Source: an uncultured Actinomycetes bacterium
GTDB lineage: Bacteria > Actinomycetota > Acidimicrobiia > Acidimicrobiales > Microtrichaceae
Assembly: GCA_903930035.1 (NCBI GenBank)
Contig: CAIYXG010000470.1
Coordinates: 1-28,379 of the forward strand
Reading direction: 5' to 3'
Length of the DNA: 28,379 nt
Positions 2,519 through 21,192 of the stretch are shown here, piece after piece (positions within the stretch are counted from its first letter, which is position 1; every line of letters begins with the position of its first letter). The notes under the pieces are model-generated. The model was not told where the DNA came from, ran no database searches, and worked only from the letters and a program-made list of their open reading frames with translations. A program made the translations under genes and the position numbers.

Positions 2519-3582
2519 GCGTCAGTTCCTCCGGTGGGGCCGTCGACCGGCCCCTGCGCGTGGACCGTCTCGACCACCCGCTCGAGCACCGACGGGTCGG
2601 TCTCGGGCAGGACGCCGTGGCCCAGGTTGAAGATGTGGCCCCGCCCGCCGCCGCGCCGCAGCACGTCGTGGACCGCGGGCTCCGTGGCCGCCCAGCCGGC
2701 GGCGACGACCGCCGGGTCCAGGTTGCCCTGGACGCCGGTGCCCGCCGGGAGCCGGGTCCGGGCGGCGTCGAGCGGCGTGCGCCAGTCGACCCCGACGACC
2801 TCGGCGCCGGCGCGGGCCATGAGCCCGAGCAGCTCGCCCGTCTGCACGCCGAAGTGGATGCGGGGCACGCCCAGGTCGGCCACGCCCTCGAGCACCTTGG
2901 TGCTCGCCGGCAGCACGTACTGCTCGTAGTCGGCGGGGGACAGGCTGCCGGCCCACGAGTCGAACAGCTGCACCGCCGCGGCGCCGTGGGCCACCTGCGA
3001 CCGGAGCGAGTCCAGCGCCAGGTCGGCCAGACGGTCCAGCAGCTCGAACCAGAGCCCCGGGTCGGAGTGCATGAGGGCCTTGGTGCGCACGTACGTGCGC
3101 GACGGCTTCCCCTCGAGCAGGTAGCTGGCCACCGTGTAGGGCGCCCCGGCAAAGGCAATGAGCGGGACGGGCAGCTCGGCCACCAGGTTGCGCACCGTCT
3201 GGACCACGTAGGGCGTGTCGGCCTCGGGGTCGAGCGGCCGCAGCCGGTCCAGGTCGGCCCGCCCCGCGAACGGCCGTTCCACGACCGGGCCGATGCCGGG
3301 GGCGATGTCGACACCGAACCCGATCGCGTGGACCGGGGTCATGATGTCGGAGTAGAGGATCGCGGCGTCCACGCCGTAGCGGCGCACGGGCTGCAGCGTG
3401 ATCTCGGTGGCCAGGTCGGGGTCGGCGATGGCCCGGAGGATGGTCCCGGTGCCGCGGATCTCCCGGTACTCGGGGAGCGACCGGCCGGCCTGCCGCATGA
3501 ACCAGACCGGGGTGTGCTCGGTGGGCAGCCCGCGGCACGCGCGGACGAACGCCGAGCTGGAGTGGTCGGGGGTACCGGTCAT
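2515..3582 (-). CDS. hemE: Uroporphyrinogen decarboxylase
   Basis: [45 protein letters not shown] motifs. ATG at 3582; an in-frame GTG at 3585 is an alternative start. Confidence 0.97.
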
Positions 3583-18638: not shown

Positions 18639-19274
18639 TCAGCCCTTGGGCTGCGGCACCCAGCGCAGGTAGGGCTTCTCGGCGCGCCAGCCCTCGGGGA
18701 ACTTCTCCTTGGCCTGCTCGTCGGAGACCGCGCCGCCGATGATGACGTCGCCGCCGTCGGTCCAGTTGGCCGGCGTGGCCACCGAGTACTTGGCCGTGAG
18801 CTGGAGCGAGTCGACGACCCGCAGGATCTCGTCGAAGTTGCGGCCGGTCGACGCCGGGTAGGTCAGCTGCAGCTTGAGCTTGTTGTCCGGGCCGATCACG
18901 AACACCGAGCGCACGGTCAGGGTGTCCAGCTCGTTCGGGTGCACCATGTCGTAGAGGTCGGCGACCGCTCGGTCCGGGTCGGCGATCATCGGGAAGTTCA
19001 CCGCCTCGCCCTGGGTCTCGGCGATGTCCTTCTCCCACTCGAGGTGCGAGTCCACCGGGTCCACGGAGAGACCGATGACCTTCACCCCGCGGCGGTCGAA
19101 CTCGGGCTTCAGCCTGGCGACGGTGCCGAGCTCGGTGGTGCACACCGGCGTGAAGTCCTTGGGGTGCGAGAACAGGATGGCCCAGGCACCGTCCTTCCAC
19201 TCGTGGAACGAGATCGTCCCCTGCGTGGTCTCGGCGGTGAAGTCCGGGACGGTGTCCCCGAGGCGGATGGCCAT
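18639..19274 (-). CDS. 1-Cys peroxiredoxin (Prx6 subfamily)
   Basis: FSHPKDFTPVCTTE, YPASTGRNFDE, ATPANW; single Cys. AGGAG RBS 7 nt upstream. Confidence 0.95.
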   Translation of the reverse strand: MAIRLGDTVPDFTAETTQGTISFHEWKDGAWAILFSHPKDFTPVCTTELGTVARLKPEFDRRGVKVIGLSVDPVDSHLEWEKDIAETQGEAVNFPMIADPDRAVADLYDMVHPNELDTLTVRSVFVIGPDNKLKLQLTYPASTGRNFDEILRVVDSLQLTAKYSVATPANWTDGGDVIIGGAVSDEQAKEKFPEGWRAEKPYLRWVPQPKG

Positions 19275-19411
19275 GGTGCTGCTCCTGTCGTCGTCCGGCG
19301 TCGGACGGCCGGACCAAATATCCGACCAAGATAGTCAGGTATTAGCCGACGGCCAAGCGCTGGGCTGTGCCGGACGCCACAGCGCCACGCGTTGCTGCTC
19401 GCGGGGGTGCT

Positions 19412-19420
19412 TGCTACAGT
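19412..19420 (+). promoter_or_regulatory. Extended -10 promoter (TGcTACAGT) for the small gene at 19505
   Basis: TGn plus TANNNT in the divergent prx/small-gene intergenic region, embedded in an inverted repeat. Confidence 0.5.
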
Positions 19421-19504
19421 TAGCACCGAGTTCAGATCACCGCCGTCCTCCACACCCCCCGGTGGACGGCCCCCGCAAGGGGCAACCCCCAAGAGGAGCA
19501 AGCA

Positions 19505-19858
19505 ATGAGCACCCCCGTCATCGACAAGGTGTCCGAGATCCAGGACTACGTCATCCTCGGCATCGCCTCCGTGAAGGAGCCCGCCACCAACGCCGTGACC
19601 ACGGTCGTCGACTTCGTGACCGGCCGCGTGGAGACCGTCCCGGCCGTGCCGTTCGCCGAGCGGATCCCCACCCCCAAGGAGGTCATCAACAACAGCGCGA
19701 AGTTCGCGACCAACGTGGTGTCCACCTCCAAGGACGTGGCGCTGAGCGTGGCCAAGGCCGCTGCCCCGGTCACCGACCAGCTGCTCGACCGCAAGTCGGC
19801 CAAGAAGACGGCCAAGAAGGTCGCCAAGAACGTCGAGTCGATCGCCTCGGTCGCCTGA
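19505..19858 (+). CDS. Small hypothetical protein (117 aa), amphipathic-helical with Lys/Ala-rich tail (phasin/HBHA-like character)
   Basis: Strong GAGGAG RBS 6 nt upstream; strongly biased codons (AAC, TTC, ATC, AAG); tail KSAKKTAKKVAK. Confidence 0.85.
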   Translation: MSTPVIDKVSEIQDYVILGIASVKEPATNAVTTVVDFVTGRVETVPAVPFAERIPTPKEVINNSAKFATNVVSTSKDVALSVAKAAAPVTDQLLDRKSAKKTAKKVAKNVESIASVA

Positions 19859-19870
19859 CACACCCCCGCA

Positions 19871-19974
19871 CGGCCGGGTCTCCCCCCACCTGGCCGACAG
19901 CGAACCCGCCTGCACGTCCCCCCGGTGCACGGCGGTAGAGCGAAGGACCCGTTCCCCCCACGGGTCCTTCGTTC
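19871..19974 (+). other. Array of three stem-loops with identical TCCCCCC loop cores at 36-nt pitch (candidate structured 3'UTR or small RNA)
   Basis: Stems 19871-79/19888-96, 19906-15/19925-35 and 19938-52/19960-74; loop T residues at 19881, 19917 and 19953. Confidence 0.6.
19938..19974. terminator. Strong hairpin between the converging small gene and lhgO (probable bidirectional terminator)
   Basis: CGAAGGACCCGT / ACGGGTCCTTCG perfect 12 bp, extendable to 15 bp with one G-U; 7-nt loop. Confidence 0.65.
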
Positions 19975-19989
19975 GCGTCCGGGGGCGGT

Positions 19990-21192
19990 TCAGCGGTGGA
20001 CCAGCGCCCCGAGGCGCCGGGCGACGGTCCGGCCGATCGCCAGCGCGGCGGTGGCCGCCGGCGACGGCGCGTTGACCACGTGCACGGCGCGGGGCGACTC
20101 GGCGAACTCGAAGTCGTCGACCAGCGTGCCGTCGGGGCGCAGCGCCTGGGCCCGGATGCCCGAGCCCGCCGGGACCAGGTCGTGGGCCCGCACCTCGGGG
20201 ACCATCCGCCGCAGCTCGCGCGCCACCAGGGCCACCGAGCGCGAGCGGAGCAGCTCGGCCGCACCAGTGGTCCAGTAGCGGGCGGCCAGCCGCCGCAGGC
20301 CGGGGTCGCGGGCCAGCTCGACCGTGTCCTGGACGTCCAGGCCACCGGCGTAGGCCTCGCGGCCGAGGGCCAGCACGGCGTTCGGGCCGGCGTGCACGAG
20401 GCCGTCGACACCGCGGGTCAGGTGGACCCCCAGGAACGGCCACCGGGGGTCGGGCACGGGGTAGATCATCGTGCGGCACAGCTCGGCCGCCGCAGGGCGG
20501 AGCGACAGGTAGTCGCCGCGGAACGGCACGATGCGGACCCCCGGCTCGGCCCCGCACCGGCGCGCCACCCGGTCCGACTGCAGCCCGGCGCAGTTGACCA
20601 GCCAGCGTGTGCGCACCGCCCCCGCGGTCGTCGCCAGCCCCAGGCCGGCCGGCGCGACGGCCACGCGGAGCACCTCGGCCCGTGGGACGAGCACCCCGCC
20701 GCGGGCCAGGACCTCCTCCACCAGCGCCCGGGTGACCGCCGCGTAGTCCACCGCCGCGGCCGACGGCACGTGCAGCGCCGCGATGCCGCGGGCGTGCGGC
20801 TCGACCGCCCGCAGGCCGGTGCCGGACAGCCGGTGCGTCTCGACGCCCCCGGCCCGGGCCCGCCGCTCGATCTCGGCCAGCGGACCCAGCTCCGACGTGC
20901 GGGTGGCGACCACCACCTTGCCCGACTCGGCCAGCGGCAGGCCGTGCTCGCGCACCAGGTCCACCAGCGCGGCGCGGCCCTCCCGGACGAGCTCGGCCTT
21001 CTCGGAGCCCGGCCGGTAGTAGCACCCGGAGTGCACGACGCCGGAGTTGCGGCCCGTCTGGTGCTGCGCCGGCCCGGACTCCTTGTCGAGGACCACGACG
21101 TCGAGGCCGGGCAGCTCGTCGAGGACCGCTCGGGCAGTGGCCATCCCCACGATGCCGGCGCCCACCACGACGACGTCGGCGTCGACGGTCAC
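19990..21192 (-). CDS. lhgO: L-2-hydroxyglutarate oxidase (FAD-dependent)
   Basis: C-terminal 400 aa of ORF 19990..22542: VVVVGAGIVGMATA, HQTGRNSGVVHSG, VNCAGLQSDRVA, IYPVPDPRWPFLGVHLT, AGPNAV, GIRAQA, HVVNAPSPAATA. GTG start overlaps the upstream stop (GTGA). Confidence 0.93.
   Translation of the reverse strand: MTVDADVVVVGAGIVGMATARAVLDELPGLDVVVLDKESGPAQHQTGRNSGVVHSGCYYRPGSEKAELVREGRAALVDLVREHGLPLAESGKVVVATRTSELGPLAEIERRARAGGVETHRLSGTGLRAVEPHARGIAALHVPSAAAVDYAAVTRALVEEVLARGGVLVPRAEVLRVAVAPAGLGLATTAGAVRTRWLVNCAGLQSDRVARRCGAEPGVRIVPFRGDYLSLRPAAAELCRTMIYPVPDPRWPFLGVHLTRGVDGLVHAGPNAVLALGREAYAGGLDVQDTVELARDPGLRRLAARYWTTGAAELLRSRSVALVARELRRMVPEVRAHDLVPAGSGIRAQALRPDGTLVDDFEFAESPRAVHVVNAPSPAATAALAIGRTVARRLGALVHR

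What the first reader, a model, noticed from the sequence alone, without database searches (positions are those of the whole stretch)
19871..19985. Three hairpins with unrelated stems but identical TCCCCCC loops at an exact 36-nt pitch: candidate new structured RNA element
Seen directly: hairpin 1 CGGCCGGGT-[CTCCCCCC]-ACCTGGCCG, hairpin 2 CCGCCTGCAC-[GTCCCCCCG]-GTGCA(C)GGCGG, hairpin 3 GAGCGAAGGACCCGT-[TCCCCCC]-ACGGGTCCTTCGTTC. Each loop has T plus exactly six C, starting at 19881, 19917 and 19953. The stems share no sequence, so this is not simple duplication; loop sequence, loop exposure and spacing look selected. Hypotheses: (a) a 3'UTR-derived sRNA whose C-rich loops pair with G-rich ribosome-binding sites, like the UCCC loops of S. 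aureus RNAIII/RsaE (the SDR RBS in this window, AGGGGGA, is complementary); (b) a multivalent protein-binding array, with GGGGGGA loops on the minus strand recalling CsrB-type GGA loops; (c) a Rho-loading or stability element; (d) a loop-3 pseudoknot with GGGGG at 19981-85. A fourth C6-loop hairpin sits in the 5' leader of the same gene.
Basis: partly seen in the sequence, partly recalled or inferred. Interest (0 to 1): 0.75.

Follow-up and report, generated by a model that had tools for sequence, protein, structure and literature searches.

The report
6C-like C-loop RNA in a 3' UTR
The three hairpins are real and conserved, but they are a divergent relative of the known actinobacterial 6C small RNA, here attached to the end of a small conserved protein gene rather than standing alone.

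Summary
Three strong hairpins (19871-19896, 19906-19935, 19938-19974) each show UCCCCCC in the loop, with C-runs exactly 36 nt apart. These are the only three copies of that heptamer in the 28-kb window.

It is not a new RNA class. The last two hairpins match Rfam 6C (RF01066) over the full model at 29.3 bits, below the cut-off of 47. The orthologous element in one relative scores 48.0.

The array sits directly after a 117-aa ORF of unknown function. That ORF was found in 24 of 24 sampled genomes of the window's family, whose relatives are labelled Microthrixaceae (Acidimicrobiales). Most of the 48 distinct loci have two or three C-loop hairpins plus a terminator hairpin behind the ORF. All 32 base pairs covary, and G-U pairs favour the ORF's sense strand.

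No -10-like hexamer lies in front of the array in 0 of 27 orthologues, so I read it as a 3' UTR module. By analogy with M. tuberculosis 6C, it probably pairs its C-loops with G-rich ribosome-binding sites. That step is inferred, and there is no expression evidence for the hairpins.

The genome has a second 6C-like locus, LysR-linked, on contig C1. The scan noted that type before on other DNA (e1-5257270). The ORF-linked array was not among the earlier notes I retrieved. The exact 36-nt pitch and the downstream G-run pseudoknot are not conserved.

The parts
18639..19274 (-). Divergent neighbour: 1-Cys peroxiredoxin (AhpC/TSA family). It shares the promoter region with the small ORF.
   Evidence: Pfam AhpC-TSA 1.3e-32 plus 1-cysPrx_C. 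NCBIfam peroxiredoxin, 212.7 bits. Present at 35 of 48 orthologous loci.
19392..19397 (+). -35-like hexamer TTGCTG, 17 nt upstream of the -10. Most relatives have TTGAC here.
   Evidence: Read from the sequence. Orthologues carry TTGAC at the same distance. Promoter function is inferred.
19409..19424 (+). Near-invariant 16-nt box GCTTGCTACAGTTAGC, containing the probable -10 TACAGT (19415-19420). It is probably also an operator.
   Evidence: My pattern for this box matched 43 of 48 distinct orthologous loci, and 28 of these carry the identical 16-mer. In many relatives it is flanked by GCAAGCA-type repeats.
19442..19470 (+).
   Evidence: Inverted repeat I15. It shares 15 of 16 nt with HP2's loop plus 3' arm (D4). 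C>=5 runs occur in 53% of orthologous leaders against 22% in shuffles.
19505..19858 (+). 117-aa ORF P0001: two long predicted helices and a Lys/Ala-rich tail, function unknown.
   Evidence: Found in 24 of 24 sampled family genomes. No Pfam or NCBIfam family, only weak Phasin_2 hints. Low-confidence helical model, pLDDT 52. Metatranscriptome contigs identical to 19451/19453-19860.
19871..19896 (+). Hairpin 1: 9 bp, loop CUCCCCCC.
   Evidence: Helix 1 of alignment A6: 8 of 8 pairs have compensatory changes and 93.9% of cells are paired.
19906..19935 (+). Hairpin 2: 10 bp with one bulged C, loop GUCCCCCCG. It aligns to the first hairpin of the Rfam 6C model.
   Evidence: Helix 2 of A6: 9 of 9 pairs have compensatory changes and 95.2% of cells are paired.
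19938..19974 (+). Hairpin 3: 15 bp, loop UCCCCCC, probably the transcription terminator. It aligns to the second hairpin of the Rfam 6C model.
   Evidence: Helix 3 of A6: 15 of 15 pairs have compensatory changes and 97.8% of cells are paired. In about 10 of 27 relatives the same hairpin is followed by a U-tract. In about half of the aligned relatives its loop carries no C-run, for example UUCG.
19975..19982 (+). Tail GCGUCCGG after hairpin 3, in the position where lower-GC relatives have UUUUCGG.
   Evidence: About half of the 27 aligned orthologues have a GCGUC-type tail and about 10 have a U-rich tail.
19990..21192 (-). Convergent neighbour: L-2-hydroxyglutarate oxidase-like FAD oxidoreductase. 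Its stop codon lies 15 nt beyond hairpin 3.
   Evidence: NCBIfam NF008726, 475 bits. Pfam DAO. Neighbour at only 23 of 48 orthologous loci, so the array follows the ORF and not this gene.

Best explanation
The stretch 19869-19982 on the + strand is a conserved structured RNA module of the 6C type. It has two hairpins displaying (U)CCCCCC loops, followed by a terminator hairpin that in this lineage also carries a C6 loop.

It is most likely transcribed as the 3' untranslated region of the 117-aa gene P0001, from the conserved promoter at about 19392-19420, and ends at hairpin 3.

The exposed C-runs most likely base-pair with G-rich Shine-Dalgarno-like sequences of other mRNAs and so change their translation or stability, as shown for M. 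tuberculosis 6C. They could act either while still on the full-length mRNA or after the roughly 115-nt hairpin block is cut off.

Shown here: the structure, its conservation and covariation, the strand, the linkage to the ORF, the resemblance to 6C, and the rarity of such arrays in the genome.
Inferred: co-transcription with the ORF, any processing, and the pairing mechanism and its targets.
For: 1. Structure and significance.

2. Resemblance to 6C:
- Rfam RF01066 aligns over its full length to 19903-19974 at 29.3 bits.
- The orthologous element in L021 scores 48.0 against a cut-off of 47.
- The published definition (two hairpins, each loop with at least six Cs, covarying stems, Actinobacteria; PMC1950547) is met.

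3. Conservation:
- P0001 was found in 24 of 24 family genomes.
- A model built only from the window and its nearest relative finds the element behind P0001 in most of the loci searched (27 of 40 at E<=0.05).
- Alignment A6 has 96.1% of cells paired, 32 of 32 pairs with compensatory change, and a covariation score of 0.80 against 0.195 for shuffles and 0.07-0.14 for slid partners.
- A C-run of four or more fills loop 1 in 22 and loop 2 in 23 of the 27 rows.
- C>=6 runs occur in 83% of the 3' regions against 30% in shuffles.

4. Strand: 37 G-U cells against 8 A-C cells.

5. 3' UTR rather than a separate gene:
- The median distance from stop codon to array is about 20 nt.
- There is no TANNNT hexamer in the 70 nt upstream of the array in 0 of 27 orthologues.
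- The promoter box upstream of the ORF matched in 43 of 48 loci.

6. Not dispersed: model R2 finds only two loci in this genome.

7. Mechanism by analogy: the C-rich loops of M. tuberculosis 6C bind G-rich mRNA sites directly (PMC6486639). In this genome my scan listed about 100 G-rich motif and start-codon combinations of the AGGGGGA type just upstream of long ORFs, some counted more than once.
Against: - There is no expression evidence for the hairpins. Two metatranscriptome assemblies hold the ORF at 100% identity, but their contigs stop at 19860, 11 nt before hairpin 1. A third stops at 19878.
- No run on record as RNA holds the array's words, although that search had only 8 sampled words. 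This could reflect processing plus size selection, GC or structure bias, or real absence of read-through.
- Rfam's own threshold is not met here, and it is met in only 1 of about 40 orthologues. Common descent with 6C is therefore not proven. C-rich loops are common among sRNAs of high-GC Gram-positives and could be convergent.
- No target was validated.
- The A6 alignment was fitted to the structure by the covariance model, which inflates the paired percentage.
Confidence: 0.6

Rival explanations
1. The array acts only in cis at the mRNA 3' end. The three GC-rich hairpins would terminate transcription, possibly for both convergent genes, and block 3'-to-5' exonucleases. The C-rich loops would then be a by-product, or part of a U-tract-independent terminator signal.
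For: Hairpin 3 is followed by a U-tract in about 10 of 27 orthologues and by a recurrent GCGUCCGG tail in the high-GC ones. The array sits between convergent genes. C-rich stem-loops have been proposed as alternative terminators in Streptomyces (Panek 2008, cited in PMC6486639).
Against: One hairpin is enough to terminate, yet two further hairpins with C6 loops are kept across genera while their stems turn over. The terminator hairpin itself often has a UUCG-type loop, so the C-run is not needed for termination. Homologues of the ORF in other actinobacterial classes have a plain single terminator. Such arrays are found at only two loci in this genome. lhgO is the neighbour in only 23 of 48 loci.
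Confidence: 0.2
2. The array is an independent small-RNA gene with its own promoter inside the end of the ORF, like canonical 6C/B11, and is merely adjacent to P0001.
For: Canonical 6C genes, and the second 6C-like locus on contig C1, are stand-alone with a promoter-like TATGGT or TATCGT upstream. The metatranscriptome contigs of the ORF do not run into the array.
Against: No TANNNT hexamer lies within 70 nt upstream of the array in 0 of 27 orthologues, where I estimate about 4 by chance. The gap from stop codon to array is as short as -10 to 20 nt. The consensus scan finds no promoter. The linkage to the ORF persists down to 25-30% protein identity.
Confidence: 0.1
3. The array is a multivalent protein-binding platform. 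Either the C-loops on the + strand or the G-loops on the - strand would titrate an RNA-binding protein, in the manner of CsrB.
For: There are three to four repeated, exposed, identical loop motifs at a similar spacing. The co-encoded P0001 has a Lys/Ala-rich tail that could in principle bind nucleic acid.
Against: No CsrA was found, though the genome is only 78% complete. G-U against A-C counts favour the + strand. No RNA-binding domain is recognised in P0001. P0001 homologues in other classes lack the array.
Confidence: 0.07
4. The pattern is a chance arrangement, a REP-like dispersed repeat, or an assembly artefact.
For: The genome is 73% GC, so GC-rich hairpins and C-runs are frequent: 5959 C5+ runs and 517 loose C-loop hairpins.
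Against: The array is conserved at the orthologous position in dozens of independent genomes, with covariation. Only two loci exist in this genome. The stems are not repeats of each other. I estimate about 0.02 such triple clusters by chance.
Confidence: 0.02

Closest known systems
6C RNA (Rfam RF01066; B11/ncRv13660c in M. tuberculosis, scr3558 in S. coelicolor, cgb_03605 in C. glutamicum)
   Same: Both are actinobacterial. Both have adjacent GC-rich hairpins with covarying stems whose loops each carry a run of at least six Cs, and the last hairpin doubles as the terminator. The Rfam model aligns end to end with hairpins 2 and 3, and an orthologue passes the cut-off. The likely mechanism, C-loops pairing with G-rich mRNA sites without a chaperone, has been shown for the M. 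tuberculosis RNA (PMC6486639).
   Different: - The score here is 29.3 bits, below the cut-off of 47, and only 1 of about 40 orthologues passes.
- There is a third C-loop hairpin upstream, plus a C-loop hairpin in the 5' leader.
- The array lies 12 nt after the stop codon of a conserved protein gene with no promoter signal of its own, so it is a 3' UTR and not a stand-alone gene.
- It is not near partitioning or pilus genes.
- The genome has another, stand-alone 6C-like locus on contig C1, next to LysR and HAD-IB genes. From memory, that looks more like the syntenic counterpart of canonical 6C.
LysR-paired 6C-like sRNA of Acidimicrobiales (this genome: contig C1, 746-863; earlier scan note e1-5257270)
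   Same: It has the same three-hairpin C-loop architecture and a similar terminator stem (GAAGGAC...GUCCUUC). My models R1 and R2, built only from ORF-linked elements, hit it at 35.9 and 40.8 bits. In one relative (L010) the two elements lie about 1.1 kb apart.
   Different: It is a stand-alone gene with a promoter-like TATGGT, a U-tract terminator and a divergent LysR regulator, and it is followed by a HAD-IB/acyltransferase gene. It has no upstream ORF.
RsaE/RoxS and RNAIII-type C-rich-loop sRNAs of Firmicutes
   Same: The principle is the same: exposed C-rich motifs in several hairpin loops that pair with G-rich ribosome-binding sites.
   Different: There is no sequence or model match; no such Rfam family was reported at E<=10. 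The motif differs (UCCC against UCCCCCC), as does the phylum. This is an analogy, not membership.
3'UTR-derived sRNAs (e.g. CpxQ, SroC and DapZ in enterobacteria, RsaC in S. aureus; from my own knowledge)
   Same: A regulatory RNA module shares the terminator of an mRNA and is co-regulated with the upstream gene.
   Different: Those depend on Hfq, ProQ or RNase E and have unrelated sequences. Processing of this element has not been shown.

Membership tests
6C RNA (Rfam RF01066 / Weinberg 2007 6C motif) | Two hairpins, each with a run of at least 6 Cs in the loop | tested here: met
   Three hairpins have C6 loops at 19882-87, 19918-23 and 19954-59. The definition is quoted from PMC1950547.
6C RNA (Rfam RF01066 / Weinberg 2007 6C motif) | Significant covariation in the stems | tested here: met
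   32 of 32 pairs have compensatory changes across 27 orthologues. The covariation score is 0.80, against 0.195 for shuffles and no more than 0.14 for slid partners. Caveat: the alignment was fitted by the covariance model.
6C RNA (Rfam RF01066 / Weinberg 2007 6C motif) | Found in Actinobacteria | tested here: met
   Orthologous loci are titled Microthrixaceae, Acidimicrobiales or Actinomycetota.
6C RNA (Rfam RF01066 / Weinberg 2007 6C motif) | Score at or above Rfam's gathering threshold of 47 bits | tested here: not met
   The window scores 29.3 bits and gives no hit in gathering mode. Among about 40 orthologous loci only L021 passes, at 48.0; the next best are 30.6 and 29.6.
6C RNA (Rfam RF01066 / Weinberg 2007 6C motif) | Usual context: 200-300 nt from chromosome-partitioning or pilus-assembly genes | tested here: not met
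   The neighbours are a 1-Cys peroxiredoxin, P0001, an lhgO-like oxidase, an acyltransferase and an adenylate-cyclase/AAA/TPR protein.
6C RNA (Rfam RF01066 / Weinberg 2007 6C motif) | Stand-alone sRNA gene with its own promoter, as in M. tuberculosis and C. glutamicum | tested here: inconclusive
   No -10-like hexamer lies upstream of the array in 0 of 27 orthologues and the scan finds no promoter. There are no transcript-end data for the array.
6C RNA (Rfam RF01066 / Weinberg 2007 6C motif) | C-rich loops pair with G-rich mRNA targets | not testable with these tools
   Only plausibility can be shown: about 100 G-rich motif and start-codon combinations lie before long ORFs in this genome.
CsrB/RsmZ-type protein sponge | A CsrA/RsmA partner protein is encoded in the genome, and the GGA loops lie on the transcribed strand | tested here: not met
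   No PF02599 match in the 78%-complete genome, while the controls were detected. G-U against A-C counts favour the C-loop strand.
REP / dispersed intergenic repeat | Many near-identical copies scattered through the genome | tested here: not met
   Model R2 finds 2 loci. The hairpin scan finds no other triple cluster. The stems are not repeats of one another.
RsaE/RoxS (Rfam RF01820) | Match to the family's covariance model | tested here: not met
   The family is not among the matches at E<=10 in the 801-nt scan against all Rfam families.

The most novel reading that the evidence does not exclude
The P0001 transcript is a dual-function RNA. It encodes a small helical protein, and its 3' UTR is released as a stable 6C-type regulator of about 115 nt. 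Both would be switched by the near-invariant operator/promoter box shared with the divergent peroxiredoxin gene. On this reading the element would be an ORF-linked, 3'UTR-derived member of the 6C class, and a stress-coupled post-transcriptional regulon in uncultured Acidimicrobiia. A bolder sub-variant is that the Lys-rich P0001 protein is itself the partner of C-loop RNAs in a phylum that lacks Hfq and ProQ.
Probability: 0.25. Interest if true: 0.6.

Novelty: new variant of a known kind. Interest (0 to 1): 0.4.

Why it matters
6C is one of the few widely conserved small RNAs of Actinobacteria. Its mechanism, chaperone-free pairing of C-rich loops with G-rich ribosome-binding sites, has been worked out only in M. 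tuberculosis.

This finding suggests that a deep-branching, largely uncultured lineage keeps two versions of the module. The lineage is Microtrichaceae, which is common in wastewater and freshwater. One version is stand-alone and LysR-linked. The other is fused to the 3' end of a conserved small-protein gene behind a near-invariant promoter/operator shared with a peroxiredoxin gene.

If the 3' UTR version is processed and acts in trans, it would extend 3'UTR-derived regulation to the 6C class and hint at how such sRNAs arise or are recruited. It also shows that Rfam's 6C model misses most Acidimicrobiia relatives, and the alignment made here (A6) could seed a better model.

Even so, this is an extension of a known family, not a new principle.

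Tried and rejected
- Rfam in gathering mode on the whole window gave nothing. Only the permissive mode showed the 6C match.
- Whole-genome search with RF01066 missed even known sub-threshold hits, because only 88-150 candidates are scored. I did not use it for absence claims.
- MAFFT plus RNAalifold on 26 trimmed orthologues failed to recover hairpins 1 and 2, because stem lengths differ. I replaced it with a covariance model seeded from the window and its nearest relative.
The narrower alignment A2 worked.
- Function of P0001:
  - No Pfam or NCBIfam family.
  - PDB profile hits only to designed helical bundles.
  - Atlas neighbours unnamed, with a weak phasin lead.
  - The AlphaFold model has pLDDT 52, so I ran no fold search.
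- Pseudoknot or closing stem between ACCCCCG (19862-68) and CGGGGGC (19979-85): it appears in the minimum-energy fold, but the G-run is absent from all but the nearest relative.
- Cis anti-SD pairing of the C-loops with the gene's own RBS: the RBSs here and in orthologues are of the GGAGG type with no G-run.
- lhgO start region as a local target: no G-run.
- The LysR next to the second locus is not specifically OxyR. Its best matches are to generic LysR-family models, with OxyR at 91 bits against a cut-off of 329.
- The other two-hairpin C-loop clusters in the genome (C200, C337, window minus strand) lie in coding-like sequence or lack the architecture.
- Metatranscriptome evidence for the array: none found.

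Full report
**Observation**

The window is a 73% GC contig (C470) of a 2.5-Mb MAG that is 78% complete. The flagged stretch lies between two convergent genes:
- a 117-aa ORF, P0001 (19505-19858, + strand);
- an L-2-hydroxyglutarate-oxidase-like gene (19990-21192, - strand).

- HP1: 19871-19896, loop CUCCCCCC;
- HP2: 19906-19935, one bulged C, loop GUCCCCCCG;
- HP3: 19938-19974, 15 bp, loop UCCCCCC.

The C6 runs start at 19882, 19918 and 19954. RNAfold returns exactly these hairpins on the + strand (-75.1 kcal/mol, z = -4.9). The - strand folds less distinctively (z = -2.9).

The pattern is not chance:
- UCCCCCC occurs only three times in the 28-kb window, all in these loops, against 11.8 expected.
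- A relaxed genome-wide scan found 517 C-loop hairpins but only one run of three within 60-nt steps, this one. My own Poisson estimate expects about 0.02.
- The three stems share no repeat.

**What it resembles**

Rfam at its curated thresholds reports nothing. In permissive mode the best hit is 6C RNA (RF01066). It aligns over the whole 75-position model to 19903-19974, which is HP2 plus HP3, at 29.3 bits against a cut-off of 47.

The published 6C motif is defined as two hairpins whose loops each hold at least six Cs, with covarying stems, widespread in Actinobacteria (PMC1950547). In M. tuberculosis the C-rich loops bind G-rich mRNA sites directly and are needed for function (PMC6486639).

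**Conservation**

P0001 was found in 24 of 24 sampled genomes of the same family, and in 6 of 16 genomes from other families of the order. Public records of orthologous loci are titled Microthrixaceae or Acidimicrobiales.

Most of the 48 distinct loci have two or three hairpins with (U)CCCCC(C) loops just after the stop codon. A GC-rich terminator hairpin follows, with either a C-rich or a UUCG-type loop. The few exceptions include L013, L019, L027, L045 and L067.

MAFFT with RNAalifold could not align the variable stems. I therefore built a covariance model from the window and its closest relative only (R1).
- R1 recovered the element behind P0001 in most of the loci searched (27 of 40 at E<=0.05).
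- In the resulting 27-row alignment (A6), 96.1% of cells pair and all 32 pairs show compensatory changes.
- The covariation score is 0.80, against 0.195 for shuffles and 0.07-0.14 for slid partners. The alignment is fitted to the model, so the paired percentage is somewhat flattering.
- A C-run of four or more fills loop 1 in 22 rows and loop 2 in 23 rows of 27.
- C>=6 runs occur in 83% of the 3' regions against 30% in shuffles.
- G-U cells outnumber A-C cells 37 to 8, which points to the ORF's sense strand.
- Loop-to-loop distances are 29-41 nt with a median near 35, and the closest relative has 37/36. The approximate spacing follows from hairpin size; the exact 36-nt pitch is not conserved.

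**Relation to 6C**

The orthologous element in L021 scores 48.0 bits against Rfam 6C, just over the cut-off. The other roughly 40 orthologous loci stay at or below about 31 bits. The element meets the descriptive definition of 6C, but it is not a curated-threshold member.

The genome holds a second three-hairpin C-loop RNA on contig C1 (746-863). It has a U-tract terminator and lies between a divergent LysR gene and a HAD-IB/acyltransferase gene.
- The same arrangement recurs in relatives (L032, L033, L104), and two of these loci (L032, L033) score about 37 bits against Rfam 6C.
- Model R2, built only from ORF-linked elements, finds exactly these two loci in the genome, at 100.6 and 40.8 bits.
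- This LysR-linked type is what an earlier scan note (e1-5257270) described on other DNA.
- From memory, canonical 6C genes lie beside a HAD-IB gene (Rv3661, cg0360, SCO3558). If so, the C1 locus is the more likely syntenic counterpart and the window's array a paralogue. I did not test this.
- In one relative (L010) the two types lie about 1.1 kb apart.

**3' UTR or separate gene**

The evidence favours co-transcription with the ORF:
- The array begins a median of about 20 nt after the stop codon.
- None of the 27 aligned orthologues has a TANNNT hexamer in the 70 nt upstream. I estimate about 4 by chance.
- The consensus scan finds no promoter.
- Upstream of the ORF, a 16-nt box (GCTTGCTACAGTTAGC, 19409-19424, containing TACAGT) matched in 43 of 48 loci. 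TTGAC lies 17-18 nt upstream of TACAGT, and GCAAGCA-type repeats flank the box.

Homologues of P0001 in other actinobacterial classes are followed by plain single terminators, apart from four loci (L092, L093, L096, L097) with short C-rich stretches. One of those 29 loci, L072 from genome G127, comes from an unpublished genome. The statement does not depend on it.

**Expression data**

- Two metatranscriptome assemblies contain contigs identical to 19451/19453-19860, and a third contains 19678-19878.
- The stretches just outside this transcript (19278-19439 and most of 19872-20033) have essentially no depth.
- So the ORF appears to be transcribed, but the contigs stop just before or inside hairpin 1.
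- No run on record as RNA holds the array's words, though that search had only 8 sampled words.
- This fits cleavage plus loss of a small structured RNA, or GC and structure bias. It does not show that the array is expressed.

**Mechanism**

My preferred reading is a 6C-type regulatory module carried in a 3' UTR, with HP3 as the terminator. The C-loops would pair with G-rich Shine-Dalgarno-like sites. This genome has many such sites of the AGGGGGA type in front of long ORFs.

Rivals, with my confidence in each:
- a purely cis terminator or stabiliser (0.2);
- an independent sRNA gene (0.1);
- a protein-binding array (0.07), given that no CsrA was found;
- chance or a dispersed repeat (0.02).

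**The leader hairpin**

The leader hairpin (19442-19470) is real. C-runs are enriched in orthologous leaders (53% against 22% in shuffles), but they are far from universal. In this genome the leader hairpin shares 15 of 16 nt with HP2.

**Verdict**

The interpretation as a new RNA class is not supported. It is a new variant of the known 6C kind: ORF-linked, 3'UTR-borne, with three C-loops. Interest is moderate.

Noticed in passing
window 19385-19430 (box at 19409-19424): A 16-nt box, GCTTGCTACAGTTAGC, overlaps the probable -10 (TACAGT). My pattern for it matched 43 of 48 orthologous loci, and 28 carry the identical 16-mer. In many relatives it is flanked by GCAAGCA/GCGAGCA repeats upstream of the -35 and just downstream of the start. 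This looks like a multi-site operator for an unidentified regulator, in the region shared with the divergent 1-Cys peroxiredoxin gene (present in 35 of 48 loci).
   Followed up: partly
L001 (G000 contig C1) 706-870: A second 6C-like small RNA gene has three GUCCCCCCG-loop hairpins and a U-tract terminator. It lies between a divergent LysR gene and a HAD-IB/acyltransferase gene, and the arrangement is conserved in relatives (L032, L033, L104). Its upstream region shares the 11-mer GCTTGCTACAG with the window's promoter box, but that match is not kept in relatives.
   Followed up: partly
L010 1846-2050 and about 3090-3290: In one relative (G019) the ORF-linked array and a stand-alone 6C-like gene with a GCTATGGT promoter-like motif lie about 1.1 kb apart. 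This hints at a common origin by local duplication.
   Followed up: no
window 19455-19470 and 19918-19933: The 5' leader hairpin and hairpin 2 share 15 of 16 nt (loop plus 3' arm). As a result the leader's 5' arm could also pair with hairpin 2's 3' arm (13 nt, 85% complementary). The similarity is much weaker in the nearest relative.
   Followed up: partly
window 19975-19982 and orthologous positions: After the terminator hairpin, about half of the 27 aligned orthologues carry a GCGUC-type tail (typically GCGUCCGG) where others have UUUUCGG. This may be a U-tract-less terminator tail typical of this family.
   Followed up: no
whole genome G000: Many long ORFs are preceded by G-rich Shine-Dalgarno-like motifs of the form AGGGGGA(A/C)C, 4-12 nt before the start codon. 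These are natural pairing partners for UCCCCCC loops. The list is not filtered by a gene caller and not tested for enrichment.
   Followed up: no
L105 about 1500-1600 (G003 contig C23): The 3' UTR of a gene ending in Gly-Gly-Met repeats, which from memory is typical of a GroEL C-terminus, carries one small C-loop hairpin before its terminator. It is a weak hit to model R2 (39 bits).
   Followed up: no
window 19799-19830: The Lys/Ala-rich tail of P0001 is encoded by three exact GCCAAGAA repeats spaced 12 nt apart. In metatranscriptomes this stretch attracts many contigs from other organisms at 90% likeness, which inflates the depth there.
   Followed up: no
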